Source: an uncultured Cytophagia bacterium
Lineage (GTDB): Bacteria; Zhuqueibacterota; Zhuqueibacteria; Thermofontimicrobiales; Thermofontimicrobiaceae
Length of the DNA stretch: 64,000 nt
Assembly: GCA_964472785.1 (NCBI GenBank)
Contig: CAYYMH010000011.1
Location: forward strand, 22,783-86,782
Direction of reading: 5' to 3'
Shown here piece after piece: positions 1,809-21,645 of the stretch. The notes beneath the pieces were generated by a model. That model ran no database searches and was not told the origin of the DNA. It saw nothing but the letters and a program-made list of their open reading frames with translations. Numbering within the stretch: position 1 is the first letter of the stretch; each line of letters starts with the position of its first letter. The translations under genes and the position numbers were made by a program.

Positions 1809-3626
1809 TTGAAAAGCAGTTATCACGACGAAGAAATACTTGGCAAAGCCTACGACAGCCGGCTTTTTAAACGGCTTCTGGAATACCTGAAACCTTATAA
1901 GGTTCAAGTGGTGGTGGGTATCCTGTTGGTGCTTATCGCAACCGGGCTCGAACTGCTGGGTCCGTACCTGATCAAAGTTGCCATCGATCAATACATCGTC
2001 ACCAAGATTTCCGAAGGCTTGATCACGATTGTGCTCATTTATCTGGGATTGCTGATATTCAAATTTATTTTTCAGGTGATTCGTGCGTACCTGATGCAAT
2101 GGATCGGACAAAAGGTGGTGTTTGACATCCGCATGAAAATTTTCAAACATTTTCAAAAATTGTCGCTGTCATTTTTTGATAAAAATCCTGTCGGACGTCT
2201 GGTGACCCGGGTTACCACAGATGTGGAAACATTGAACGAGTGGTTTTCAGCGGGAATTGTCTCGATTTTCGGGGATGTATTTCTGCTGCTCGGTATCGTG
2301 ATTGTAATGATCAATATTCAATGGAAATTGGCGCTGGTCACTTTTTCGGTGCTGCCGATTCTCATTTATATCACCGTCTTTTTCCGAAAACGGATTCGCA
2401 CGGCCTACCGCGACATCAGAACGCGGATTGCCAAAATCAATTCCTATCTGCAGGAAAACATCAGCGGGATGACCGTGGTGCAGATTTTCAACCGGGAAAA
2501 ACGTAATTTTAAAAAATTCGACCAGTTGAACCAAAGTCACCTGGAAGCACATTTGCGTTCGATTTTTTACTACTCCATTTTCCTGCCATCCATCGATGTG
2601 ATCGAATCCATTGCGTTGGCGTTGATTATTTGGTACGGCGGCATGCAGTATTACGCGGAAAATGTCACGTTCGGTATTCTGGTGTTGTTCATTCAGTACT
2701 CCAAGCGTTTCTTCCGCCCGATCTCCGATTTGACGGATAAGTATAATATTATGCAATCTGCCATGGCAGCGTCGGAGCGGATTTTTATGTTATTAGATGA
2801 AAAACCGGAAATCACCAATCCGGAACAACCAAAGACGCTCACTCAATTCAATGGTCGTATTGAGTTCCGAAATGTCTGGTTCGCGTACAAAAATAAAAAA
2901 GACGGCTCACCGGACTATGTGCTGAAGGATATTTCTTTTACAGTGAATCCCGGAGAACGCATCGCATTTGTCGGCGCCACTGGAGCCGGGAAGACATCGA
3001 TTATGAATTTGCTCTGCCGGTTTTACGACGTTACCGAGGGAGAAATTTTGCTGGACGGTATCAATATCAAAGACCTGAAAATTCAAGACCTGCGTAAAAA
3101 TCTCGGATTGGTGCTTCAGGATGTGTTTATTTTCGCGGGAACAGTGGAGGAAAACATCCGGCTGGGCAATGCGGGAATCAGTTCCGACCGAATCAAAAAT
3201 TCTGCAAAAGATGCAAACGCCCACCATTTCATCAAAAATCTGCCCGACAAATATGATGAATTTATGATGGAGCGGGGAGCTTCGCTATCCACCGGTCAAA
3301 AACAATTGCTTGCCTTTGCCCGCGCGCTGGCTTTTGATCCGAATGTTCTGATCCTGGATGAAGCAACATCGAGCGTGGACACTGAATCGGAAAAATTAAT
3401 TCAGCAAGCGCTCAACAGACTGATGGCAAACCGGACTTCCATTTGCATCGCGCATCGTCTGTCCACCATTCAAAATTGTGACCGGATTATTGTCATGCAC
3501 AAGGGACAAATTCGCGAGGAGGGTTCTCATCAGGAATTACTGAAATTGAAGGGAATTTATTACACGCTGTATCAATTGCAGTTTATGGATAAAAAATTTC
3601 AAGCGGATGCATCAGTCAAAAATTGA
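1809..3626 (+). CDS. ABC transporter ATP-binding/permease protein (subunit B of heterodimeric exporter)
   Basis: 605 aa with a TTG start preceded by aaagga. Walker A is GATGAGKTS, the signature is LSTGQKQL and Walker B is LILDEATS. The TMD plus NBD architecture is MdlB/MsbA-like. Confidence 0.88.
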   Translation: MKSSYHDEEILGKAYDSRLFKRLLEYLKPYKVQVVVGILLVLIATGLELLGPYLIKVAIDQYIVTKISEGLITIVLIYLGLLIFKFIFQVIRAYLMQWIGQKVVFDIRMKIFKHFQKLSLSFFDKNPVGRLVTRVTTDVETLNEWFSAGIVSIFGDVFLLLGIVIVMINIQWKLALVTFSVLPILIYITVFFRKRIRTAYRDIRTRIAKINSYLQENISGMTVVQIFNREKRNFKKFDQLNQSHLEAHLRSIFYYSIFLPSIDVIESIALALIIWYGGMQYYAENVTFGILVLFIQYSKRFFRPISDLTDKYNIMQSAMAASERIFMLLDEKPEITNPEQPKTLTQFNGRIEFRNVWFAYKNKKDGSPDYVLKDISFTVNPGERIAFVGATGAGKTSIMNLLCRFYDVTEGEILLDGINIKDLKIQDLRKNLGLVLQDVFIFAGTVEENIRLGNAGISSDRIKNSAKDANAHHFIKNLPDKYDEFMMERGASLSTGQKQLLAFARALAFDPNVLILDEATSSVDTESEKLIQQALNRLMANRTSICIAHRLSTIQNCDRIIVMHKGQIREEGSHQELLKLKGIYYTLYQLQFMDKKFQADASVKN

Positions 3627-3638
3627 CAGGAATTTTGT

Positions 3639-4433
3639 TTAGTCTTCAAATAAAAATTGAAAGATACTTTTTTCAGTCTCCACCTTTGACTTTAATAAAT
3701 CTGATTTTCGCTCGCTAACTGTTTCATCTCGTTTACATAGATGCTTGATCAATTTCATATCATCATTCCACCTAACGCCGTCAAAAAACTCGACACCTTT
3801 GTGATCACGGATTTTATACAGCGCTTTGGTCTTGTAACATGTACCGAGATAGACGTAATCCAAATTCTGCTCCATCGCCCAGCGGATCGTCCGCCACATC
3901 ATCCATTTGCCCAATGAATGCGATTTTAAATAATCGAGGTCAAAAAAGGAGTACCAGTAATGGAGCGTGTTACCGTGAATCGCCGCACAGACATAACCAT
4001 ACGTTTTTTCAACCGATCTAAAAATGAGGATGTGGCTCAAGATATTCCCGTTGAAAATGTACTTAATCCGGGCTTCATCCATTCGTCCGCCATCGAAGCG
4101 GGTTTCAGCGTATTGTTTGCAAAAGCCTAAAAAATCATTTTCGTTGGTATCAAAATCTGATTTTTGAACAGGTATCAAATCAATCTTCAGTGGTTCGACC
4201 AAACGGTTCACTCGCCGGTTTTCCGAGGTATCTGTAAATTTATCCAGATTGATCCGCACACTTCGAGCCAGATAAAAAATGTCTTTTTTAATAGAGAAAT
4301 CCCCTGTAAATGGCAAAAAACCTTTTGCGTAGATTTCGGGAATTTCCTGTTGAGTTTCTTTGACGCAATATACGCCAAAGGAAAAAGTGTAGGTTTGATA
4401 ATCGATTTGGTGTTGTGAGAAGATGAGTTTCAT
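3639..4433 (-). CDS. ATE_C-domain protein (arginyl/leucyl-tRNA--protein transferase, Bpt-like)
   Basis: The C-terminal region HYWYSFFDLDY...SLGKWMMWRTIRWAMEQNLDYVYLG...DGVRW matches the conserved ATE_C/Bpt block (YxFYDPDY...SLG...YVYLGYWI). The start was moved to the internal ATG at 4431-4433 (MKLIFSQ). Confidence 0.55.
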   Translation of the reverse strand: MKLIFSQHQIDYQTYTFSFGVYCVKETQQEIPEIYAKGFLPFTGDFSIKKDIFYLARSVRINLDKFTDTSENRRVNRLVEPLKIDLIPVQKSDFDTNENDFLGFCKQYAETRFDGGRMDEARIKYIFNGNILSHILIFRSVEKTYGYVCAAIHGNTLHYWYSFFDLDYLKSHSLGKWMMWRTIRWAMEQNLDYVYLGTCYKTKALYKIRDHKGVEFFDGVRWNDDMKLIKHLCKRDETVSERKSDLLKSKVETEKSIFQFLFED

Positions 4434-4458
4434 AATCTTATTTGAAATAAATTTACAT

Positions 4459-5433
4459 TCAGCTCCAAGACACGCGATGAGAATACAGACTCTGCGGATG
4501 ACCAATAATATTTATATCAAATTTAAGGGAAGTTTCTACCCTTGAGCTTGCGCTGTGAATTCGAAAAGATATTTGCCAGCCTTTGTCAAAAGTTAAGTGC
4601 AAAGTATTCGTTGAATTATTTTTATAACGGAATTCAATGATGCGTGTTGGGAATTGCAATTTTCCAACATGTATTGAGGGTCTAATTTCATTAGCAGGTT
4701 TGTTCAGTGTCCCATTGAAATTGAAAGCCTGAATAAGTGTAAGTCGATTTTCTTTTATCACTTTGTAAAAGTCTTGTTTACCTATAAGATAGTGGAGTAA
4801 TCTTTCTGGAACAATGGATGGATTTTTTCTGTCAATTTTTAACAACTCATTCCTGAATGCGTTCAGTACTTTCTGATATATTTCGTGTTTTTTAGGTAAT
4901 GAACTCCATAACGTTTTTGACTTACTCAACGGTCTCAGCGCATCAAAAATTTCTTTTACTTTAGTGATATACTCCGATGAACATGGTATTCCAAGCCATT
5001 TTTTACCAAAATCAATTCGACCGGATAATCTTGAGTGTTTCAAGGCGCGATGTTGATTTTTCGCTGAAATTCCAATTTCCCACTGGTGTTTCTTTCTGAT
5101 TGCTAATATGTCTCTTGTATCTCCCACAATACCAGCTTTATCTGAAATTAATTGTAATTCCAAAGCATCATTTTTTGACAAGGGATTCGTAAGCCGAGGT
5201 TCCAATAACATCAAATGCTTAATAGCCGATTCCGACGCTCGTTTGTACTTATGTTGTTCCTTATCACTGCATTTATTAAAACATTCTAACGCTATATCGA
5301 ATGAGCGATCTTCTACAATTTTAACATCTTGTTTATGACTTAACAGTTCATATAATTTTATCAGAAGAGAATATTCAAATGCCTTACCTGTCTCCCTTTG
5401 ACTAAGCGGGGTCATTATTTCTTTCTCCTTCAA
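4459..5433 (-). CDS. putative type II restriction endonuclease (partner of the adjacent Dam-family methyltransferase)
   Basis: 324 aa with no family recognised by eye. The call is positional: it is co-oriented with the upstream methyltransferase and overlaps its stop by 4 nt (ATGA). The gene is low in GC (about 33%) relative to its neighbours. Confidence 0.4.
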   Translation of the reverse strand: MKEKEIMTPLSQRETGKAFEYSLLIKLYELLSHKQDVKIVEDRSFDIALECFNKCSDKEQHKYKRASESAIKHLMLLEPRLTNPLSKNDALELQLISDKAGIVGDTRDILAIRKKHQWEIGISAKNQHRALKHSRLSGRIDFGKKWLGIPCSSEYITKVKEIFDALRPLSKSKTLWSSLPKKHEIYQKVLNAFRNELLKIDRKNPSIVPERLLHYLIGKQDFYKVIKENRLTLIQAFNFNGTLNKPANEIRPSIHVGKLQFPTRIIEFRYKNNSTNTLHLTFDKGWQISFRIHSASSRVETSLKFDINIIGHPQSLYSHRVSWS

Positions 5434-6314
5434 AGATTGAAATAAGCCTGGATATCTTTGCTAAGTATGAGTACTTCTCTCGAATTCTTATCATTTGACA
5501 TACCGTATTTCCAAACGGGAAAAAGTATTTTATAATTCTTATAAAGGTCTAATATTTCAGGACAATTGTTATAAGAAAGAAGCCAGTTGTCTCTATTATC
5601 TAAAATCTTAAACAATGCTAAATGATCAAAATCTCTATGTGCGTCTCCGTTTCTGCCATATAAATTATTCTTTATCAAATAAGGTGGATCCAAATAAAGA
5701 AACATATTGGGATGTCTTTCAATCGAATATCGGAAGTCAAAATTTCGAACTTTTATTAGGGGATTATGAAAGTTTCTGATTCGATCAATTGAAGTTAATG
5801 TAAATCTGGGATGTCCCGGAGACATTCCTCCCGATAAGGTCGAACCAGAGTATGATGATCTATTTAAAACATAAAATACAACGGCTCTTTCTATTTTTGT
5901 TTTAAATGATTTTTGCACTTTTTGTAGATGATAAAATTTTTCTTTTGAAAGAGGATAATATTTTAATACATGGTTTGCGAGTTCATGAGGGTCATCAATC
6001 AAGGATTGCCAAAATTCAACCAAAGGTTTAAATATATCGTATCCAAAAACTTTTATTCCTCTTCCGGTGCAGGCTAATTCAACGGAGCCCCCTCCGATAA
6101 ATGGAGCACACATTTCATCAATGAATTTGGGAATTAGCGACAAAATAATATTGACGGCTCTTGTTTTCCCACCAGGATATCTTAACAGAGATTTTGTAGA
6201 ATATTTTACGGTTTCACAAGTGGTACTAAAAAGATGCTCCAAGGAACCATCGTCTTTCACTACTTTTACGCTTTTGTTTCCCCCAGATACGATGTAGGAA
6301 TGATTTTTAATCAT
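5430..6314 (-). CDS. DNA N6-adenine methyltransferase, Dam/D12 class
   Basis: RYPGGKTR (Dam motif X-like), FIGGGSV (AdoMet-binding motif I) and YLDPPYL (catalytic DPPY motif IV) are all present. Confidence 0.85.
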   Translation of the reverse strand: MIKNHSYIVSGGNKSVKVVKDDGSLEHLFSTTCETVKYSTKSLLRYPGGKTRAVNIILSLIPKFIDEMCAPFIGGGSVELACTGRGIKVFGYDIFKPLVEFWQSLIDDPHELANHVLKYYPLSKEKFYHLQKVQKSFKTKIERAVVFYVLNRSSYSGSTLSGGMSPGHPRFTLTSIDRIRNFHNPLIKVRNFDFRYSIERHPNMFLYLDPPYLIKNNLYGRNGDAHRDFDHLALFKILDNRDNWLLSYNNCPEILDLYKNYKILFPVWKYGMSNDKNSREVLILSKDIQAYFNL

Positions 6315-13219: not shown

Positions 13220-13483
13220 TCAATCAAGACTTGTTTCACGATTTCTCCTGGACGTGAAAGCATTCTTCCGACGGATTTTCAAATCTTTTAAAAATTCCTT
13301 AAAATCATCTTCAGGCATATCACGCCAACTTCCTGCTAATTTTAATATTTTGTCAGGAGTTGATACCTTTGCTTCTAATCCCAAACGATAATGATGAATT
13401 AAATCAAAAATTTCAGATACTTTTTCATCCGGTATTTTTTCAATCTCATCGAAAATTTTATCGCGCATTACTGATTTTTTCAT
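13220..13483 (-). CDS. hypothetical small protein, DUF2281-like (orphan antitoxin-like)
   Basis: 87 aa. The C-terminal region LAGSWRDMPEDDFKEFL resembles the DUF2281 GSxxGxxxxDDFDxPLxDF block. No toxin partner is adjacent. Confidence 0.3.
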   Translation of the reverse strand: MKKSVMRDKIFDEIEKIPDEKVSEIFDLIHHYRLGLEAKVSTPDKILKLAGSWRDMPEDDFKEFLKDLKIRRKNAFTSRRNRETSLD

Positions 13484-13675: not shown

Positions 13676-14137
13676 TTATTTTTCCATCAAAGCCTTTTCA
13701 ACTTCACTGACATCCGGTATATCCGACATGGAATAACCGTAATAGACAAATGTGAGAATCCCGGACTTGTCGATCAGCATCTGCGCGGGCATTCTGCCAA
13801 ATTTGAAAATTTTCACTTGCTGTCCGTAAAGCTTTATGACCGAATGTTTCGGATCAGGCAAACCAACGAACGGCAGGGATTCCTTTTGCCAGTATTTTTT
13901 GAACGCCTCGGAGTTTTCCGGTCCCACGACCAACACTTCAACATCTAACTTCTGCAATCTGTCTGCTTCCTGACGCAACTGCGCCATGTGCTTGCGGCAA
14001 AATGGTCACATAAATCCCCGGTTAAAAACCAGCAGCACATTTTTCTTCTCTTTGTAATCAGACAGGGAGACGTTTTCCCCATTAAAATCTTTCAGCGTAA
14101 AATTTGGGGCTTGAGTGTTGAGTTGTGCTTTTGGCAT
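13676..14137 (-). CDS. redoxin/AhpC-TSA-fold thiol:disulfide oxidoreductase with in-frame TGA at the redox-active position (candidate selenoprotein, UxxC)
   Basis: An ATG at 14135-14137 opens 43 sense codons (MPKAQLNTQAPNFTLKDFNGENVSLSDYKEKKNVLLVFNRGFM). A TGA follows at 14006-14008, and the same frame continues as PFCRKHMAQLRQ...EK to the stop. The N-terminal part aligns with the beta1-alpha1 region of BCP/peroxiredoxin (VLYFYPKDDTPGCT). The TGA therefore falls at the first Cys of a CxxC-like pair (U-P-F-C). Confidence 0.5.
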
Positions 14138-14353
14138 TTAATAGTACTTTCTTAATTTTTTTGTAAAAACCTAAAAGTGATTTTACTAGTTTTAACATGA
14201 AAAAATATTGCACTGCATTTCGAGCGTATAGCGTGATTAACCCAAAGGATTTGACAATTGCACAAAACCTGCATTTCAGCTGTGGCCAAGTCGTCAAGTT
14301 TATTCTTTGATTTGTGTTTTAACAACGAACAATTAATAAAAATTTGCTATACT

Positions 14354-14397
14354 AAAGACCGCAAGATTCAAATTTAATTTTACTACCTGCGGTCTTT
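14354..14397 (-). other. 10-bp perfect-stem hairpin downstream of the DGR template repeat
   Basis: aaagaccgca (14354-14363) pairs with tgcggtcttt (14388-14397) across a 24-nt loop. On the minus strand a T-tract follows about 10 nt after the stem. It may be a terminator or structured spacer of the DGR RNA. Confidence 0.35.
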
Positions 14398-14520
14398 ATT
14401 TTGTTATTCGTCTCAATTCGCCACAGGCGGACCAAGACAGGAATAAGCCTGTCGTCTATCAAGGCGCTGGATAATCTCCAGTCGGAAAATTATCATCTGA
14501 CCAAAAAACATTACACGATT

Positions 14521-14647
14521 AAAAACTAACGAACACAACGAAACCCGATATTGTTGTTGCTATTGTTCGGATTGTTGTTGTTGCGATTCGCACAACGCGT
14601 GTTGTTGGCATTGTTGTTCCACGAACCGCTCCGCAGCACGCGATCTG
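14521..14647 (-). repeat. DGR template repeat (TR)
   Basis: 127 bp that is about 86% identical to 17110-17236. On the coding (minus) strand it is Asn-codon rich (aac/aat). 14 of the 18 mismatches to the other copy fall at adenines of this copy. Confidence 0.75.
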
Positions 14648-14761
14648 TTTTTTCGGCTTATCCCTTTTCTTTTGAAATAAAGGAGTGAAATGCCTTTACG
14701 CATTTCACGGCGGCGCATAAAGGCGCCGCACTCCATTTTATTATTTGCCGTGCTTTGTGTT

Positions 14762-15124
14762 TCACTTATTGTTATGATTATCAAAAGCTTGTTTTTTTAT
14801 CCAACCGCCAAGCATCTTTCCGATTTCGTTTATTTGAATATTGATTCGTTCATAATAACTGAAATTCCAAAAATTCAACTCCAACGTCACTCGCGTTAAA
14901 ATGCGCAGCCGTTCCAAATAATCACTGGCGCGATATAAAGCGGTTAATTTATCTGTTGAAGTAAAACCAAGCGTAATTTCTTCGATGAATTTCAGACTAC
15001 TGTCCTGTAATCGATGCGAAATAATATATCGCTGCGACTTCGGAAATTTCATCGTCGCTTTGAATAGGTCAACTGACAGTTGATAACTTTTATCAAATAA
15101 CGGGTAATCTTCTTTTCGTTTCAT
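14762..15124 (-). CDS. avd: DGR accessory variability determinant (Avd), four-helix-bundle protein
   Basis: 120 aa. The C-terminal motif EIGKMLGGWIKKQ parallels EVGRILGSWIARV of Bordetella-phage bAvd. It sits between the reverse transcriptase and the TR. Confidence 0.7.
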   Translation of the reverse strand: MKRKEDYPLFDKSYQLSVDLFKATMKFPKSQRYIISHRLQDSSLKFIEEITLGFTSTDKLTALYRASDYLERLRILTRVTLELNFWNFSYYERINIQINEIGKMLGGWIKKQAFDNHNNK

Positions 15125-15131
15125 AATATCC

Positions 15132-15197
15132 GGAGTGCATCGCCTTTATGCGATGCACGTTGCGATGCACGTGCAATGCATAAAGGCATTGCACTCC
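15132..15197. repeat. REP-like palindromic hairpin pair (copy 1)
   Basis: Two inverted units built on ggagtgcatcgcctttatgcgatgcac. Three other copies occur at 16282, 16915 and 21594. It lies between avd and the reverse transcriptase. Confidence 0.7.
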
Positions 15198-15204
15198 AAT
15201 TCCT

Positions 15205-16269
15205 TTATTTTACAAAAATAAAACGATTGAATAAATCTTCCCGCAAACGCCAGGTATCGGCATGTCCCGCGTGACCGATCCATGATTGTACGGATGAATT
15301 GATGGTTTGAAAATCAATGACGCCTTGTTTGTAGTCCTGTTGAAATATTTTCATTCGTTTGGCAAATAATCTGATGTTTGATTTTCGCAAGCGGCGATAT
15401 TCAGGGAAAATACGATAGCCCATAAAATCCGTTCCCTGCGTGACAGGGAATATTGTATTCTTTTTCGGATGAACGGACAAACGCAGCGTTGCCAAAAATC
15501 TGATGATTTCATGCCGTATATTCCACAATTCTGCTTTGGAATCGGACAACACCACAAAGTCATCCATGTAGCGAATATAATGATGGCAGCGAAGAACAAA
15601 TTTCACAAAATAATCCAGCTCGCTCAAATAAATATTCGCCAAAAACTGACTGGTTAAATTTCCGATAGGCAAACCGCGCTGCCGTTCCAGTGGAGTTAGC
15701 AAATCATCATCGCCATACCAGTGCATCACGTATTCATCTTTTAAAATATCTCTGCCGCTATGAATAATGGCGTCTAACAGCCACAGCAGATCGTTGTCCT
15801 TAATTTTTTTTCTTAAAATGGCAAGCAGAATCTCGTGATCGATGCTGGGAAAATACTTTTGAATATCGCATTTAAAAACGTATTTCTTTTTCCTGCAAAA
15901 TTGGGTAAACCGATCCGCTGCTTTATGCTGCCCTTTTCCTTTGCGACAAGCATAAGAATCAAAAATGAATAGCTTTTCGTAGATCGGCTCCAGCACATTG
16001 CAGATGGCGTGATGCACCACCCGATCACGAAACGGCGCCGCCGATACAAGCCGACGTTTGGGTTCCGTAATATAAAAATTATAGTAGCAGCCGACTTGAT
16101 AACTTTTGGAACGTAAATCATCTTGCAATTGAAACAATTCTTTCTCTAAATTTATCTTGAACTGTTCCACATACGGCTTCCATTTTTTCCCTTTTGCCGC
16201 TTTTTTAAAGGCGCTATACAAATTTTTAAAGGTGATAATGTGCGGATAGATATTTTTTATCGTTTTCAT
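15205..16269 (-). CDS. DGR reverse transcriptase
   Basis: The start was moved to the ATG at 16267-16269 (MKTIKN). LPIGNLTSQ is the DGR-specific I/LGxxxSQ variant of the QGxxxSP motif. The YMDD catalytic box is YMDDFVV. The N-terminus SAAPFRDRVVHHAICNVLEPIYE is typical of DGR reverse transcriptases. Confidence 0.9.
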   Translation of the reverse strand: MKTIKNIYPHIITFKNLYSAFKKAAKGKKWKPYVEQFKINLEKELFQLQDDLRSKSYQVGCYYNFYITEPKRRLVSAAPFRDRVVHHAICNVLEPIYEKLFIFDSYACRKGKGQHKAADRFTQFCRKKKYVFKCDIQKYFPSIDHEILLAILRKKIKDNDLLWLLDAIIHSGRDILKDEYVMHWYGDDDLLTPLERQRGLPIGNLTSQFLANIYLSELDYFVKFVLRCHHYIRYMDDFVVLSDSKAELWNIRHEIIRFLATLRLSVHPKKNTIFPVTQGTDFMGYRIFPEYRRLRKSNIRLFAKRMKIFQQDYKQGVIDFQTINSSVQSWIGHAGHADTWRLREDLFNRFIFVK

Positions 16270-16281
16270 AATTTGCCAGAT

Positions 16282-16335
16282 GGAGTGCATCGCCTTTATG
16301 CGATGCACATGCAATGCATAAAGGCATTGCACTCC
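16282..16335. repeat. REP-like palindromic hairpin pair (copy 2)
   Basis: ggagtgcatcgcctttatgcgatgcac followed by atgcaatgcataaaggcattgcactcc. It lies between the reverse transcriptase and rayT. Confidence 0.7.
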
Positions 16336-16339
16336 ATTT

Positions 16340-16888
16340 CTAAAAATCATCGATATCGTTGTAATATGTAATTGTTTGTGGTTTATATGTTAAGAAATTC
16401 TCTCTTAACCTTTCTTCTTCCTGCGCTTTCCAAACACGAAAACTTGAGAATGAGTAATCATTTAAATTTTCTACATAATGATGCTTCACAGGATTATACA
16501 AAATGTATGTCGCTGTTTCATAATAATGTTTTTCATTGCGAATACAGCGATCCCAGTATTGATACCAAAATGGTTTTACATCAATACTCAACTCTTTTTT
16601 TATGTGGAACGCGCTGGTTTTATGCAAGGTATTAAAGAAGCGTGGGATATCATCACTTTTTTTAACGTTTGCCAAAAAATGATAATGATTTTCCAATACA
16701 ACCCAATCGAATATTTCCCATTGATATTTTTCGATAAATTGAAAGAGGTATTTGATAAATATTTCTTTTGTTGTCGGAGTAGAAAGCAAACATCGTTTCT
16801 GATAGACAGCGCCTGTGAAAAAATAGTAGAAATCATCGATAAACCAATGGGTTGGAGCGTGCTTATATCTTTTTATAGTCAGGCTCAT
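16340..16888 (-). CDS. rayT: REP-associated tyrosine transposase (RayT / TnpA_REP, IS200-like Y1 HUH)
   Basis: The start was moved to the ATG at 16886-16888 (MSLTIKRYKH). The HUH motif is WVVLENHYHFL. The C-terminal block YWDRCIRNEKHYYETATYILYNPVKHHYV parallels E. coli RayT FWEHAIRNTKDYRHHVDYIYINPVKHGWV. REP hairpins flank it on both sides. Confidence 0.8.
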   Translation of the reverse strand: MSLTIKRYKHAPTHWFIDDFYYFFTGAVYQKRCLLSTPTTKEIFIKYLFQFIEKYQWEIFDWVVLENHYHFLANVKKSDDIPRFFNTLHKTSAFHIKKELSIDVKPFWYQYWDRCIRNEKHYYETATYILYNPVKHHYVENLNDYSFSSFRVWKAQEEERLRENFLTYKPQTITYYNDIDDF

Positions 16889-16914
16889 ATTGTTATCCGT
16901 GTGTTGTGAAATCC

Positions 16915-17010
16915 ATAAAGGGATTTCACTCCGTTTGGAGTGCATTCCCTTTATGGAATGCACCGCGGAGCATAAAGGCATATTCGCAATGCATAAAGGC
17001 ATTGCACTCC
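16915..17010. repeat. REP-like palindromic hairpin cluster (copy 3, composite)
   Basis: A partial unit (ataaagggatttcactcc) precedes ggagtgcattccctttatggaatgcacc and gcggagcataaaggcatattcgcaatgcataaaggcattgcactcc. It lies between rayT and the variable repeat. Confidence 0.7.
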
Positions 17011-17109
17011 GAAATGCAAAAATTTTTCGTCCGCCTTCGGCGGAACCCAAAAACCCAATTACCAAAACCCAAGTAACCAAATCACAAATCACAAAAAAGA
17101 TAGACGACT

Positions 17110-17236
17110 AAAAACTAACGAACGCAACGAAACCCGATATCGTAGTTACGATAATGCGGGTAGTTGACGAAGCGATTCGCACAACGCGTGTAGTTGGCAT
17201 CGTTGAGCCACGAACCGCTCCGCAGCACGCGATCTG
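17110..17236 (-). repeat. DGR variable repeat (VR) at 3' end of target gene
   Basis: 127 bp homologous to the TR. It covers the last ~41 codons of the 742-aa ORF and includes its stop codon. At TR-adenine positions the codons change from aac/aat to ctc, gat, tac, ttc, gtc, cat, tat and cgt. Confidence 0.75.
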
Positions 17237-19343
17237 CGCCACTCGACGGACCTGTCGGATTTTCATAGGGACTTTTGCCGTAATAATCGCTGCCATACCA
17301 GTCGGCGCACCATTCCCACACGTTGCCGCTCATGTCGTACAAGCCAAGCTCGTTGGATTGCTTAGCGCCCACGGGGTGCGTTTTACCGCCAGAATTGTTA
17401 CTATACCATGCCACACTGCCCACATCGTTGCTGCCGCTGTATGTATACCCTTTCGATTTATTACCGCCGCGCGCGGCATATTCCCACTCCGCTTCCGTGG
17501 GCAACCGTTTGCCCGCCCAGTTGGCGTAGGCATTGGCGCCGTACCATGTGACTTCAATAACGGGGTGATTGGCATAACCGCTCACTGGCACATATTTATT
17601 GCGCTGCTTTACAATTTTACAGTCTGTACCCTTTATATCAAGCCAGGTGGCGCCACCTTCACTCTGGTTGCCTTTCTCATTGAGAAATTTGCAAAATTGT
17701 TCGTTGGTCACTTCGTATTTGTCTATGTAAAAATCCTTCACATACACTTTATGGATGGGTTTTTCGTCATCACCCCCATCATTGCTGCCCATCATAAAGG
17801 CGCCGCCCTGCACATACGCCATGTCGGGATACGTTTTGGATTTGTCGTCAGTACTGGGACTGTTTCTTTGTTCAATCTGCCTGTTTTTTAAACCAAATGG
17901 CGGCTCGGTTTTCTTTTCCTGACTTGCGCTGCTGGCGTCTGCGCTGTGCGATAAGGCGGACATTTTAAACCTCGCCACCACGGTCAGGAAAAAATTATCG
18001 TTATCGCCCGCCACGGGATACAGCCAGATCGTGTCCACATCGCGATACATATCCTGTCCGCCGCCTGTTTTATCCGATTCCAGCATGAAATTGACCACTT
18101 CAGTTTCACGGATAAACTGTTCCACTTTGGAGTAGCTTTGTTTTATCTGCGTGTACACATCGAACGCGGTTTTGGCAATGTCGTCGGCGGGATTGCCTTC
18201 GGCGGTGACATTGGCGGTGAATCGGGCAATCAGCTCCTTTTCTTTAGCGGCGATAAGCTGATTTTTGAGCTGCTCCACCTGGTTGTCGAAATAGCGCAGG
18301 GATTTGTTAATGCTAACTTCGATGTTGTTGGCGTCGTACACCACATTCGTCTTTTCCTGAATGGTTTGTTTGAGAAAACGGCTGCGATTCGCCAGATTGG
18401 TTTGCAACTGTTCAATATCCGAATCAATTTTCGCCAGGTTGGCAAAGCCATTGCGGATAATCTGCTGCTGTCTGCGGCTGGATGTGCTGTTAGAATTGTC
18501 GATCACGGCTTTGCTGGAATTCACTTCAAATTCGATGCTTTTAATTTCAGCGGCGGACACGCCTGCGGACTGCAGTTTGGTTTGATAATTGTAATCGCTC
18601 AATAAATTAACAACGAGATGCGCGCTCGTTGTTTCTGCATAGTCCCTTGTCGCGGCAAGCGATTTCTTGAGCGGCGCTACATTGACTTTGATGAGATATA
18701 AAAATTTAGTTTGTCCAGCAATTTTTTTGAACATAGGCTGCTTTTCAACCGTCATTTCGCCGCTTATTTGCGCTTTGATGCGGTCGGTGAGCAGGCGGTT
18801 GTCTTCAATTACGGTCAGGCTGGAAATAAACACGCCATTCAAATCTTCGATTGCCGTCGGCGCCAGCAGCTTCTCCGCCTGGTCCGACAGTTTTTCTTTG
18901 GACGCCAGGATATCGATATCGTTGAGCAGCACGAGATAAAAACCCTGAAAAGCGATACTGGCCAGATCCTGCTGAACCTGCTGTTCAATATCTTTGCGGC
19001 TTTGCTGCTTCACCGTAATCTGCTCCTGCATTTTCTTGATGTCCACCAGTTTGAGCAGCTCCTGTTTGTCCATGTAAATATTGGTCATCTTGTTTTTCAG
19101 CATGGCGATCTGGTTGTCCACATCGATATTGTTGCGGGTGATCTGAATTTTCAGCTCGTCAATATCCAGCGACTTGCAGAAAAACCGCGCCGTTTTGATT
19201 TTCTGACTCATGGCAGATTTTTGAATACTGCCTTTGTCGAAAATCAACGGACTCGCGGGTTGATAGATTTGAGAGTAAAGAGGAATAGCAAACAGAAATG
19301 ACAGGAATAGACAAACTGTTTTTTTTATCATTTGAATCTCCAA
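17115..19343 (-). CDS. DGR target (variable) protein: secreted coiled-coil-rich protein with C-terminal FGE-sulfatase (C-type-lectin-like) domain
   Basis: It has a signal peptide (MEIQMIKKTVCLFLSFLFAIPLYSQ). The C-terminal roughly 250 aa carry FGE/SUMF1-like motifs (GGAFMMGS, HPVIEVTWYGANAYANWAGKRLPTEAEWEYAARGG, NVWEWCADWY). The VR occupies the C-terminal tail, as in known DGR targets. Confidence 0.75.
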   Translation of the reverse strand: MEIQMIKKTVCLFLSFLFAIPLYSQIYQPASPLIFDKGSIQKSAMSQKIKTARFFCKSLDIDELKIQITRNNIDVDNQIAMLKNKMTNIYMDKQELLKLVDIKKMQEQITVKQQSRKDIEQQVQQDLASIAFQGFYLVLLNDIDILASKEKLSDQAEKLLAPTAIEDLNGVFISSLTVIEDNRLLTDRIKAQISGEMTVEKQPMFKKIAGQTKFLYLIKVNVAPLKKSLAATRDYAETTSAHLVVNLLSDYNYQTKLQSAGVSAAEIKSIEFEVNSSKAVIDNSNSTSSRRQQQIIRNGFANLAKIDSDIEQLQTNLANRSRFLKQTIQEKTNVVYDANNIEVSINKSLRYFDNQVEQLKNQLIAAKEKELIARFTANVTAEGNPADDIAKTAFDVYTQIKQSYSKVEQFIRETEVVNFMLESDKTGGGQDMYRDVDTIWLYPVAGDNDNFFLTVVARFKMSALSHSADASSASQEKKTEPPFGLKNRQIEQRNSPSTDDKSKTYPDMAYVQGGAFMMGSNDGGDDEKPIHKVYVKDFYIDKYEVTNEQFCKFLNEKGNQSEGGATWLDIKGTDCKIVKQRNKYVPVSGYANHPVIEVTWYGANAYANWAGKRLPTEAEWEYAARGGNKSKGYTYSGSNDVGSVAWYSNNSGGKTHPVGAKQSNELGLYDMSGNVWEWCADWYGSDYYGKSPYENPTGPSSGADRVLRSGSWLNDANYTRCANRFVNYPHYRNYDIGFRCVR

Positions 19344-19563: not shown

Positions 19564-19806
19564 TTAAACTGACCCCAACTTCAATCGTTCAGCAATCCAA
19601 ATTTTAATTATAGACTGCCGGGTCACTCCCAGTCTTTTCGCTTCTTTATCAAGAGATTTTATCATCCATATTGGAAAATCCACATTGACACGCTTTTGTT
19701 CCAAACCCGGTCTTTTGGCGTTCTCCAAATCTAAGTAATCTGTCAGATCTTCCCCGTTATCAAATTTCTTATCAAATTCTTCAGCTTTCATATATTTCTT
19801 TTTCAT
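19564..19806 (-). CDS. brnA: BrnA antitoxin (RHH/CopG-like) of BrnT/BrnA type II TA system
   Basis: 80 aa. The C-terminal region KEAKRLGVTRQSIIKIWIAERL is the BrnA-type ribbon-helix-helix. It overlaps the upstream brnT by 26 nt. Confidence 0.7.
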   Translation of the reverse strand: MKKKYMKAEEFDKKFDNGEDLTDYLDLENAKRPGLEQKRVNVDFPIWMIKSLDKEAKRLGVTRQSIIKIWIAERLKLGSV

Positions 19807-20041
19807 TTTTCCTCGCCCTTCGAACTGAAATTAATCTTATTTTTTTATTTCGATACGTAAATATAGCAGCCCAATGTTTGTTATAAATCATGGCGATTAA
19901 AACATATCTTGGCTCATCCAGATGTTTCGTTGGAATTTCAATCCTGTCAGGATCGTTCCATAATTCCTGGGCTTCTATAAAGTCAATACCGTGTTTATCG
20001 TTATTGGCTTTGCTCTTATTCTCGTCAAACTCAAATTCCAT
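19781..20041 (-). CDS. brnT: BrnT toxin (DUF497 ribonuclease)
   Basis: 86 aa. MEFEFDENKSKANNDKHGIDFIEAQELWNDP matches the BrnT N-terminal consensus (F.WD..K...N..KHGV.F.EA..VF.D). Confidence 0.7.
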   Translation of the reverse strand: MEFEFDENKSKANNDKHGIDFIEAQELWNDPDRIEIPTKHLDEPRYVLIAMIYNKHWAAIFTYRNKKIRLISVRRARKNEKEIYES

Positions 20042-21593: not shown

Positions 21594-21645
21594 GGAGTGC
21601 AATCCCTTTATGGATTGCATGCATCGCATGAAGGCGATGCACTCC
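21594..21645. repeat. REP-like palindromic hairpin pair (copy 4)
   Basis: ggagtgcaatccctttatggattgcatgc followed by gcatcgcatgaaggcgatgcactcc. It lies intergenic inside the carotenoid operon. Confidence 0.7.

What the first reader, a model, noticed from the sequence alone, without database searches (positions are those of the whole stretch)
15132..17010. RayT transposase and REP hairpins inserted inside the DGR cassette
A clear RayT sits between the target gene (VR) and the DGR reverse transcriptase. Its HUH motif is WVVLENHYHFL and its Tyr block YILYNPVKHHYV parallels E. coli YafM/RayT. On both sides it is bracketed by palindromic about 55-95-bp REP-like elements built from inverted ggagtgcaNNgcctttatgcNNtgcac units. 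A further REP copy separates avd from the reverse transcriptase.
- The VR is still A-diversified, so the DGR has either tolerated or post-dated the insertion.
- REP copy 3 lies about 100 bp downstream of the VR. In Bordetella phage BPP-1 a hairpin/cruciform downstream of the VR promotes homing, so these REP hairpins could have been co-opted for that role.
Basis: partly seen in the sequence, partly recalled or inferred. Interest (0 to 1): 0.55.

Follow-up and report, generated by a model that had tools for sequence, protein, structure and literature searches.

The report
REP transposase nested inside a DGR
A domesticated REP-associated transposase gene (RayT) and its small palindromic REP repeats have settled into every gene junction of a working diversity-generating retroelement; this is an ordinary mobile-repeat invasion, made instructive because relatives show the before state, the tolerated state, and a later loss of the reverse transcriptase.

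Summary
Window 16340-16888 (-) encodes a RayT. It passes the NCBIfam REP_Tyr_transpos cutoff, and its HUH and Tyr motifs align to E. coli TnpA-REP (4ER8). It sits between the VR end of an FGE-sulfatase/C-type-lectin DGR target and the DGR reverse transcriptase.

Nine REP units (GGAGTG, 5-nt arm, CCTTTATG, complementary arm) fill all four junctions of the cassette. One more doublet lies 4.6 kb away.

The same REP family occurs in more than 118 stretches of KSB1/Calditrichota-type MAGs. Its stems covary and it clusters at rayT genes.

The closest REP-free DGR relatives (RT 73-88% identical) have target, hairpin, RT, Avd and TR with an ATGA RT/avd overlap. So the RayT/REP block is an insertion, not a DGR accessory. 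RayT homologs at 75% identity or less lie outside any DGR.

A native GC hairpin that covaries across relatives still sits between the VR and the REPs, so co-option of REP as the homing hairpin is unnecessary and unsupported.

The DGR kept working after the insertion: RT dN/dS is about 0.05, and VRs of insertion-sharing lineages differ mainly at TR adenines.

In one sister contig the RT is missing exactly between two REP doublets, and its avd and TR are decaying.

This is a new member of known kinds, in an unusual context, of moderate-low interest.

The parts
17115..19343 (-). DGR target gene (742 aa) with a C-terminal FGE-sulfatase / C-type-lectin-fold domain that carries the VR
   Evidence: Pfam FGE-sulfatase E=8e-70 at residues 505-742. 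A sigma70-like promoter match lies at 19434-19406.
17101..17236 (-). Variable repeat (VR), including the IMH-type 3' end TAGTCGT
   Evidence: Direct repeat with the TR, 84% identity. 15 of 19 core mismatches are at TR adenines.
17030..17044 (-). Native GC-rich hairpin (TCCGCC-GAA-GGCGGA) followed by CGAAAAATTTTT. It is conserved downstream of the VR in this DGR family and is either a homing hairpin, a terminator, or both.
   Evidence: Present at the same place in the REP-free relatives L124, L130, L136, L137, L138 and L140. 91% of cells are paired, 5 of 7 pairs show compensatory changes, and 0 of 500 shuffles reach the covariation score.
16906..17010 (.). REP cluster upstream of rayT: three REP units plus one loop fragment. 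This is the left arm of the REPtron.
   Evidence: Units have their 5' ends at 17010(-), 16937(+) and 16932(-). ssDNA fold z = -5.7. The same cluster is present in L098 and L139.
16340..16888 (-). rayT: REP-associated tyrosine (Y1/HUH) transposase, 182 aa
   Evidence: NF047646 scores 94.5 bits against a cutoff of 80. HUH and Tyr align to 4ER8. dN/dS is 0.07-0.18 against L098 and L139. It is single-copy in the window.
16282..16335 (.). REP doublet (REPIN) between the rayT stop and the RT start. This is the right arm of the REPtron.
   Evidence: Fold -23.6 kcal/mol, z = -7.6.
15205..16269 (-). DGR reverse transcriptase (354 aa, true start MKTIKN)
   Evidence: RVT_1 E=7e-24. The IGNLTSQ and YMDD motifs are in the translation. 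All close homologs are 354 aa and share this start.
15132..15197 (.). REP doublet inserted into the ancestral ATGA overlap between the RT stop and the avd start. It contains an internal 12-nt duplication.
   Evidence: Relatives read GTGAAATGAAACG. The window reads GTAAAATAAAGGAATT-[REPIN]-GGATATTATGAAACG. Fold z = -7.2.
14762..15124 (-). avd accessory gene (120 aa). Its C-terminus was altered by a REPIN insertion, from EKG* to QAFDNHNNK*.
   Evidence: bAvd E=2.7e-16 and DivGenRetAVD 77.5 bits. Compared with L098, L124 and L130.
14670..14791 (.). Recent insertion of about 119 nt in the last codons of avd. It consists of the REP doublet 14682-14734 plus 54 nt and 12 nt of non-REP flanks. The boundaries are ambiguous by a 4-nt T/A run.
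   Evidence: The empty site is present in sister L098 and in all REP-free relatives. No other copy of the 57-nt flank was found in any held sequence.
14504..14647 (-). Template repeat (TR), AAC-rich, with the IMH*-type end TAATCGT
14290..14503 (-). Conserved, structured non-coding region 3' of the TR. It is probably the spacer / priming domain of the DGR RNA.
   Evidence: Conserved in L098, L124, L130, L137 and L140. 45 pairs are predicted, and 15 of them show compensatory changes.
21594..21645 (.). REP doublet of the same family outside the DGR, in an intergenic gap

Best explanation
The block 16282-17010 is a REPtron: a single rayT gene bracketed by its cognate REP hairpins. The host is a KSB1/Calditrichota-like bacterium, judged from the organism names of homologs.

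**History (inferred from comparisons).**
- In an ancestor of this lineage the REPtron landed in the roughly 35-nt spacer between the native VR-downstream hairpin/terminator and the RT start codon of a chromosomal DGR. The ancestral order was target/VR, hairpin, RT, Avd, TR.
- It inserted in the same orientation as the DGR genes.
- REP doublets (REPINs) then colonised the two other junctions. One split the ATGA RT/avd overlap. A later one entered the last codons of avd, just 5' of the TR.

**Mechanism (inferred from the family, not shown here).**
- RayT is an HUH/Y1 single-strand DNA nuclease.
- It recognises folded REP hairpins through the conserved 5' GGAG head and the conserved CCTTTATG loop. 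The stem needs only to pair.
- It cleaves and rejoins ssDNA, and this spreads REP/REPIN copies.

**Relation to the DGR.**
- The REPs are passengers, not DGR parts.
- The DGR tolerated them and kept homing after the insertion.
- The costs are a loss of RT/Avd translational coupling, a changed Avd tail, and an RT now flanked by directly repeated 27-nt REP arms.
- In sister contig L098 the RT is absent exactly between those two doublets, through recombination or RayT-mediated excision, and the rest of that DGR is decaying.
For: **RayT identity:**

**REP family is real and wide.**
- 9 hits against 0 expected in the window.
- 271 units were found by head+loop alone. 77% have 5/5 and 92% have at least 4/5 complementary arms, with 27 different arm sequences.

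**Clustering at rayT.** 7 of the 9 loci with four or more units carry rayT, against 0 of 109 other loci. Nearly all units in rayT loci lie within 700 nt of rayT.

**It is an insertion.**
- RT homologs P0059 (82%), P0065 (73%) and P0058 (88%) have no RayT and no REP of this family. They keep the ATGA overlap and have the TR right after the avd stop.
- RayT homologs at 59-75% identity are in DGR-free contexts but REP-flanked.

**The insertion is shared.** L098 (RayT 95.6% aa), L139 (91%) and L142 (83%) all have hairpin-REP-RayT.

**It is tolerated.** RayT omega is 0.07-0.18 and RT omega about 0.05-0.09. A-site-specific VR divergence between the window and L098 is 21/39 against 6/93.

**RT loss.** L098 joins the avd-side flank of doublet 2 to the RayT-side flank of doublet 3. 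It also has a 1-nt frameshift in avd and an altered TR.

**Recent REPIN insertion.** Empty site in L098, filled site in the window.
Against: - The REP head is GGAG, not the canonical GTAG.
- The per-genome REP copy number in the source organism is unknown, because only 64 kb is held.
- The exact REPtron insertion junctions cannot be fixed, because the spacer has diverged among relatives.
- L136 (RT 78%) carries a degenerate REP doublet at the same site without RayT. The order of events (REPIN first, or RayT later lost) is therefore open.
- L138 (RT 88%, no RayT) is about as close to the window as L139 (with RayT). Loss in L138 cannot be separated from absence.
- The RT-less L098 contig comes from a co-assembly. 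A repeat-mediated assembly skip cannot be fully excluded, although the avd frameshift and the corrupted TR argue that the loss is real.
- Four non-A TR/VR mismatches suggest the window's DGR may not have homed recently.
Confidence: 0.85

Rival explanations
1. The REP hairpins, especially 16906-17010, have been co-opted as the hairpin/cruciform downstream of the VR that promotes DGR homing.
For: REP elements form very stable ssDNA hairpins about 91 nt from the VR end. Hairpins downstream of the VR are needed for homing in BPP-1 (PMC3240598).
Against: - A native GC hairpin at 17030-17044 lies between the VR and the REPs. It is conserved with compensatory changes in REP-free relatives.
- The REP-free relatives L124 and L130 have exclusively A-specific VR/TR mismatches.
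- REP has a 6-nt CTTTAT loop at 91 nt. This does not fit the published 4-nt GRNA loop at 4-34 bp.
Confidence: 0.04
2. The RayT-like protein is a lineage-specific DGR accessory nuclease, for example one that nicks near the VR for target-primed cDNA integration, and the REPs are its DGR cis sites.
For: - RayT is co-oriented with the DGR genes and sits right next to the VR.
- The arrangement is kept in four lineages under purifying selection.
- The nuclease that nicks DGR targets is unknown (general knowledge).
Against: - The closest DGR relatives lack RayT.
- None of 9 other rayT loci has a DGR RT within reach.
- The same REPs are scattered through non-DGR intergenic DNA in many genomes.
- The protein passes the curated REP_Tyr_transpos equivalog model.
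Confidence: 0.04
3. The invasion has already crippled the DGR in the window lineage, so the cassette is a recently silenced, decaying DGR rather than a tolerated, active one.
For: - There are four non-A TR/VR mismatches (positions 76, 82, 88 and 115 of the core) against zero in L124 and L130.
- The RT/avd coupling is broken and the Avd C-terminus was rewritten by the newest REPIN insertion.
- Sister L098 has clearly decayed.
Against: - All ORFs are intact, with the catalytic motifs present.
- RT omega is about 0.05-0.09.
- 15 of 19 mismatches are still at adenines.
- The TR, the IMH/IMH* difference and the 3' RNA domain are conserved.
Confidence: 0.3
4. The arrangement is an assembly artefact: repeat-induced chimerism that joins a REPtron to a DGR.
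For: REPs are assembly-breaking repeats. Many related contigs end in REPs.
Against: - An independent Logan contig (L001, SRR7048221) is 100% identical over 10,991 nt across the whole cassette.
- L098, L139 and L142, from other samples, show the same junctions.
Confidence: 0.02

Closest known systems
E. coli REPtron (tnpA-REP / yafM flanked by REP/BIME; structure 4ER8)
   Same: - A Y1 HUH nuclease of about 165-180 aa with aligned HUH and Tyr motifs.
- The gene is bracketed by its own short palindromic repeats in inverted pairs.
- The repeats are also dispersed in intergenic DNA.
   Different: - The head tetranucleotide is GGAG, not GTAG.
- Stems are perfect 9-bp palindromes without the bulge that E. 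coli group 2 REPs require.
- The loop is conserved and the stems vary freely.
- The host is a KSB1/Calditrichota-like bacterium, not a proteobacterium.
- The element sits inside a DGR operon.
Group 3 REPtrons (Stenotrophomonas maltophilia, Marinomonas MWYL1; PMC8266576) and Pseudomonas REPIN-RAYT systems
   Same: - Perfect palindromic REPs with loop-sequence-dependent recognition.
- In Marinomonas only the last two bases (AG) of the head are strongly selected, and these are the two bases kept here in GGAG.
- REP doublets (REPINs) are the common unit.
   Different: - No biochemical data exist for this family.
- The loop is longer (6 nt).
- The REP consensus is shared across many MAGs of deep lineages, whereas the described families are usually species-specific.
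IS200/IS605 insertion sequences
   Same: Same Pfam family (Y1_Tnp). Subterminal hairpins on both sides of the transposase gene. A guide tetranucleotide 5' of the hairpin.
   Different: - It scores below the IS200 NCBIfam cutoff (19.6 against 55 bits) but above the REP_Tyr_transpos cutoff.
- It is single-copy in the window.
- Its hairpins are multiplied as free-standing REPs.
Bordetella phage BPP-1 DGR and the chromosomal Avd-type DGRs surveyed by Wu et al. 2018 (PMC5758913)
   Same: - RT with IGNLTSQ and YMDD, plus Avd.
- A TR/VR pair with A-biased mismatches.
- A C-type-lectin-fold (FGE-sulfatase) target.
- A GC hairpin downstream of the VR.
- Non-accessory ORFs nested between the target and the core ('X' architectures) are already described.
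   Different: - The gene order is target-RT-avd-TR.
- The hairpin has a GAA triloop about 56 nt from the VR end, not a GRNA tetraloop at 4-34 bp.
- The nested ORF here is a RayT, and palindromic repeats occupy every junction. A full-text search found no paper mentioning both DGR and RAYT.

Membership tests
RAYT / TnpA-REP (REP-associated tyrosine transposase) | HUH metal-binding motif and a single catalytic tyrosine in an IS200-like Y1 fold | tested here: met
   HYH in VVLENHYHFL and Tyr in TYILYNPVKH align to the E. coli TnpA-REP 4ER8 motifs. Pfam Y1_Tnp.
RAYT / TnpA-REP (REP-associated tyrosine transposase) | Scores as RAYT rather than as an IS200/IS605 transposase | tested here: met
   NF047646 scores 94.5 bits against a cutoff of 80. 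NF033573 transpos_IS200 scores 19.6 bits against a cutoff of 55.
RAYT / TnpA-REP (REP-associated tyrosine transposase) | Gene flanked on both sides by cognate REPs (REPtron) | tested here: met
   Three units upstream and two downstream. The same holds at homologs in L002, L044, L055, L067, L079, L081, L142 and L143.
RAYT / TnpA-REP (REP-associated tyrosine transposase) | Single copy per genome | tested here: inconclusive
   There is one copy in the 64-kb window. The rest of the genome is not available.
RAYT / TnpA-REP (REP-associated tyrosine transposase) | Binds and cleaves single-stranded REP DNA | not testable with these tools
   This needs biochemistry.
REP / REPIN repeats | Short (20-40 nt) palindromic, extragenic, repeated elements | tested here: met
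   27-nt units with a 9-bp stem and a 6-nt loop, all intergenic apart from the one that rewrote the avd tail. 11 units in the window and 271 units in the held loci.
REP / REPIN repeats | Conserved 5' GTAG tetranucleotide | tested here: not met
   The head is GGAG in essentially all units. Only A3 and G4 match the canonical tag (PMC3733652, PMC8266576). The family works like a REP but is a GGAG-tagged variant.
REP / REPIN repeats | Frequently arranged as inverted doublets (BIME/REPIN) | tested here: met
   Four of the five elements in the window are inverted doublets and the fifth (16906-17010) is a three-unit cluster. 64 doublets were counted among 228 units in the genome loci.
REP / REPIN repeats | High copy number within one genome | tested here: inconclusive
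No count exists for the source genome.
Diversity-generating retroelement | DGR-type RT plus a TR/VR pair whose mismatches fall at TR adenines | tested here: met
   IGNLTSQ and YMDD are present. 15 of 19 core mismatches are at A. Four non-A mismatches are atypical.
Diversity-generating retroelement | Avd accessory protein and a C-type-lectin-fold target with a C-terminal VR | tested here: met
   bAvd/DivGenRetAVD and the FGE-sulfatase domain.
Diversity-generating retroelement | GC-rich hairpin downstream of the VR (7-10 bp stem, GRNA loop, 4-34 bp away, per PMC3240598) | tested here: inconclusive
   A conserved, covarying GC hairpin exists. However, it has a 5-8 bp stem and a GAA triloop and lies about 56 nt from the VR end. 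It may equally be an intrinsic terminator.

The most novel reading that the evidence does not exclude
The REP doublets are not neutral passengers. Because two directly repeated REPINs bracket the RT gene next to a co-transcribed RayT, the RT may be a RayT-excisable (and possibly re-insertable) cassette. That would make it a REP-based on/off switch for hypermutation, and the RT-less L098 would be the 'off' product. Alternatively, RayT nicking at the VR-proximal REPs might assist target-primed cDNA integration.
Probability: 0.04. Interest if true: 0.75.

Novelty: new member of a known kind. Interest (0 to 1): 0.33.

Why it matters
- **Filled and empty sites for a REPtron.** REPtrons are usually regarded as immobile, domesticated, vertically inherited genes. 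Here a REPtron sits inside an otherwise tightly conserved operon, and empty-site relatives are available.
- **A very recent REPIN insertion.** The site is empty in a sister contig whose rayT is 96.7% nt-identical (about 90% across the locus). The insertion is about 119 nt and carries 66 nt of non-REP flank. Such filled/empty pairs are rare and bear on how REPs and REPtrons move.
- **A conserved but divergent REP recognition code.** The GGAG head and CCTTTATG loop are shared across KSB1/Calditrichota-type MAGs while the stems covary freely. That makes a testable prediction about what this RayT recognises.
- **A natural series for the DGR.** Relatives show a compact state, an invaded but maintained state, and an RT deleted between REPs with avd and TR decaying. 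This is a concrete route by which repeat invasion kills a DGR.

None of this changes what DGRs or RAYTs are understood to be.

Tried and rejected
- **Rfam scan of 13900-17400:** only sub-threshold microRNA-hairpin look-alikes on the REP doublets. No known RNA family.
- **Sigma70 promoter / terminator consensus scan:** counts are close to shuffled expectation. The only strong promoter match is upstream of the target gene. It did not resolve how RT is transcribed.
- **Metagenome scan with the RT:** only two loci returned. L136 was useful. L137 is a separately decayed DGR.
- **Donor search for the 57-nt non-REP flank co-inserted with doublet 14682-14734:** no other copy in the window or in any of the 143 loci.
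- **Fixing the exact REPtron insertion junctions against empty sites:** the spacer between hairpin and RT start is too diverged, and in L138, L130 and L140 it is occupied by other palindromes.
- **P0021 look-up:** not on record. **P0018:** gene list only, no DNA.
- **Considered and rejected:**
  - RayT as a DGR accessory.
  - REP as the homing hairpin.
  - The RT-avd-TR module having moved next to a resident RayT. The cassette's continuity and flanking conserved sequences in REP-free relatives make insertion of the REPtron more parsimonious.
Full report
**1. What is in the sequence**

All relevant genes lie on the minus strand. In that reading direction the order is as follows:

| Feature | Window coordinates |
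|---|---|
| Target gene | 19343-17115 |
| VR | 17236-17101 |
| GC hairpin | 17044-17030 |
| REP cluster | 17010-16906 |
| rayT | 16888-16340 |
| REP doublet | 16335-16282 |
| Reverse transcriptase | 16269-15205 |
| REP doublet | 15197-15132 |
| avd | 15124-14762 |
| REP doublet | 14734-14682 |
| TR | 14647-14504 |
| Conserved non-coding region | 14503-14290 |

- The target has an FGE-sulfatase (C-type-lectin fold) domain at residues 505-742. The RT hits RVT_1 and avd hits bAvd/DivGenRetAVD.
- The RT translation contains IGNLTSQ and YMDD.
- The RT ORF listed mechanically starts at 16350, inside the REP. All close homologs are 354 aa and start MKTIKN, so the real start is 16269.

**2. RayT**

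- The 182-aa product passes the curated NCBIfam equivalog REP_Tyr_transpos (94.5 bits, cutoff 80). It fails the IS200 model (19.6 bits against 55).
- Its only significant solved-structure relative is E. coli TnpA-REP, 4ER8.
- It is single-copy in the window.
- It is under purifying selection: dN/dS is 0.18 against L098 and 0.07 against L139.

**3. The repeats are a genuine, wide REP family**

A head+loop scan finds 11 units, 9 of them inside the 2.4-kb cassette and one doublet at 21594-21645.
- Each unit is GGAG-TGxxxxx-CCTTTATG-xxxxxCA-C. It folds as a 9-bp perfect hairpin with a 6-nt loop.
- The elements fold as two hairpins or as one long hairpin, with z-scores of -4.9 to -7.6.
Almost all are in MAGs labelled KSB1, Zhuqueibacterota, Calditrichota or Caldithrix, or 'uncultured Cytophagia/bacterium'.
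- Across all held sequence, 271 units were picked by head and loop only. Of these, 77% have 5/5 and 92% at least 4/5 complementary variable arms, using 27 different arm sequences. So the head and loop are conserved while the stem is conserved only as a structure.
- This resembles the loop-specific recognition described for group 3 TnpA-REP, where mainly the AG of the head matters (PMC8266576).
- The canonical REP tag is GTAG (PMC3733652). Here it is GGAG.
- Clustering at rayT is clear. 7 of the 9 loci with four or more units encode a RayT homolog, against 0 of 109 other loci. In rayT loci nearly all units lie within 700 nt of the gene.

**4. It is an insertion, not a DGR accessory gene**

- The nearest RT homologs with usable flanks are P0058 (88%, L138), P0059 (82%, L124-L129) and P0065 (73%, L130-L135).
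- All three share the same layout: target/VR, a TTGG-rich spacer, a GC hairpin plus CGAAAATTTTT, the RT, avd overlapping the RT stop by ATGA, and the TR immediately after the avd stop (…GGWIKKEKG*). They have no RayT and no REP of this family.
- Conversely, RayT homologs at 59-75% identity lie among unrelated genes with no RT nearby, yet are flanked by the same REPs. These are L002/L095, L004/L005, P0018, L044, L055, L067, L079, L081 and L143.
- RayT homologs at 83% identity or more are all next to the DGR hairpin. These are L098 (95.6%), L139 (91%, with the RT start following the downstream doublet) and L142 (83%).
- This points to one old entry of the REPtron into the spacer just 3' of the hairpin, in the same orientation as the operon, and long retention afterwards.
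- L136 (RT 78%) has a degenerate CAATG+CATCG REP doublet at the same spot without RayT. REP occupancy of this site may therefore be older than the RayT insertion, or recurrent.
- Wu et al. already note non-accessory ORFs nested between target and core in DGRs (PMC5758913). No paper in the library mentions both DGR and RAYT.

**5. The other REP insertions**

- *RT/avd junction.* Ancestral GTGAAATGAAACG has become GTAAAA-TAA-AGGAATT-[66-nt doublet]-GGATATT-ATG-AAACG. The overlap is split, a TAA stop and a new ATG are supplied, and both protein ends are unchanged. L098 carries the avd-side flank of this insertion, so it predates the window/L098 split.
- *avd/TR junction.* The window has about 119 extra nt: 54 nt, then the 53-nt doublet, then 12 nt. 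The boundaries are ambiguous by a 4-nt A run. The insertion replaces EKG* with QAFDNHNNK*.
- L098 and all REP-free relatives have the empty site. This is therefore a recent event. No donor for the non-REP flanks was found.

**6. The hairpin question**

- A native hairpin (TCCGCC-GAA-GGCGGA, 17030-17044) lies between the VR and the REPs and is present in every relative, REP-free or not.
- Over 8 distinct sequences, 91% of cells pair, 5 of 7 pairs show compensatory changes, and no shuffle reaches the covariation score.
- L124 and L130 have only A-site VR/TR mismatches in the core. L138 even shows Ns within its VR. Homing in this DGR family therefore needs no REP.
- The published hairpin features are a 7-10 bp GC stem, a 4-nt GRNA loop and a distance of 4-34 bp (PMC3240598). 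REP does not match these. The native hairpin matches only loosely, with a triloop about 56 nt away, and could also be a terminator.

**7. Tolerated, then at risk**

- RT dN/dS is 0.09 (window vs L138) and about 0.05 (window vs L139, 115 codons).
- The window and L098 share the insertion, yet their VRs differ at 21 of 39 TR-adenine positions and only 6 of 93 other positions.
- L098's VR is an almost pure A-mutagenised copy of the window-type TR, with 21 A-site and 1-2 non-A differences. Homing therefore continued after the insertion.
- The window's own VR has 15 A-site and 4 non-A mismatches to its TR, while L124 and L130 have none. Its last homing event may not be recent. This is an inference.
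- In L098 the whole RT is missing. The contig joins the avd-side flank of the 15132 doublet to the RayT-side flank of the 16282 doublet through a single doublet identical to the latter.
- L098's avd also has a 1-nt frameshift. Its TR copy now carries the VR-type end (TAGTCGT), a 3-nt insertion, and 8 of 10 variants shared with the window's VR.
- The simplest reading is deletion by recombination, slippage or RayT excision between the 27-nt identical direct REP arms, followed by decay.
- L098 comes from a co-assembly, so read-level confirmation is needed.

**8. Verdict**

- The 'co-opted hairpin' reading is not supported.
- The element is a REPtron with GGAG-tagged, loop-conserved REPs in a KSB1/Calditrichota-like bacterium. 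It is a new member of a known kind, lodged in an unusual and informative place.
- The mechanistic steps (RayT recognition of head and loop, ssDNA cleavage, REPIN spread) are inferred from the family, not shown here.

Noticed in passing
L098:4640-4775 (homolog of window TR 14504-14647): In the RT-less sister contig the TR copy looks like a VR. It has the IMH-type end TAGTCGT and a 3-nt insertion. It differs from the window TR at 19 A-sites and 3 non-A sites. It shares 8 of 10 co-variable positions, including two non-A changes, with the window's VR. This suggests VR-to-TR gene conversion or self-homing into the TR.
   Followed up: partly
window 14290-14503 (-): About 200 nt 3' of the TR is conserved across six DGR loci. 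It folds into three helices, with 15 of 45 pairs showing compensatory changes. It is probably the spacer/priming domain of the DGR RNA. Nothing in Rfam matches it.
   Followed up: partly
window 17046-17100 (-) and the same place in L124, L130, L136, L138, L139, L142: A conserved TTGG-rich spacer (…TTGGTTACTTGGGTTTTGGTAATTGGG…) lies between the VR end and the GC hairpin. Its function is unknown. It could be a promoter or UP-like element for the RT, or part of the homing target.
   Followed up: no
L130:2500-2870; L140:1600-1770 and 2870-3015; L138:215-250: Other, unrelated small palindromic repeats occupy the same DGR junctions in relatives. Examples are GGGCTAAAGCCC, CCACGCCCTGAAGGACGTGG, CTCCGCCATTTATGGCGGAG and CCCTTTCAAAGGTTTGAAACCTTTGAAAGGG. 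In L140 they also separate RT from avd. These spacers seem to be general landing pads for hairpin repeats.
   Followed up: no
L137:220-1300: This is another decayed copy of the same DGR family. The RT has an in-frame stop and is truncated at residue 149 by an inserted unrelated ORF. The avd 3' half, the TR and the RNA domain remain.
   Followed up: no
L138:1-100: The VR of the closest REP-free relative contains runs of N within the VR. Their positions were not checked against TR adenines. They may reflect population-level VR heterogeneity in that metagenome.
   Followed up: no
L143:800-985: Downstream of a 75%-identical rayT there is a REP-flanked mini-ORF that fuses the RayT N-terminus (…HAPTYWFIDD) to its C-terminus (IDDL*). 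It looks like an internally deleted rayT copy, which suggests REPtron duplication and decay.
   Followed up: no
L118:1159, 4130-5438 and 5821: A second, distant DGR (RT 46%, Avd 36% identical) in a REP-bearing MAG has a REP unit about 380 nt beyond the RT and another about 3 kb upstream of avd.
   Followed up: no
window 19564-20041 (-) and 13220-13483 (-): Small toxin-antitoxin-like gene pairs flank the DGR locus. Relatives L124 (type I R-M, ParE/RelB, KilA-N) and L130 (HepT/MNT) place the same DGR cassette in different, island-like neighbourhoods. Synteny with L098 also ends at about window 14313.
   Followed up: partly
window 15161-15172: The RT/avd REP doublet carries a 12-nt internal tandem duplication (GTGCATCGCAAC/GTGCATCGCATA) that is absent from the otherwise identical doublet at 16282-16335.
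   Followed up: no
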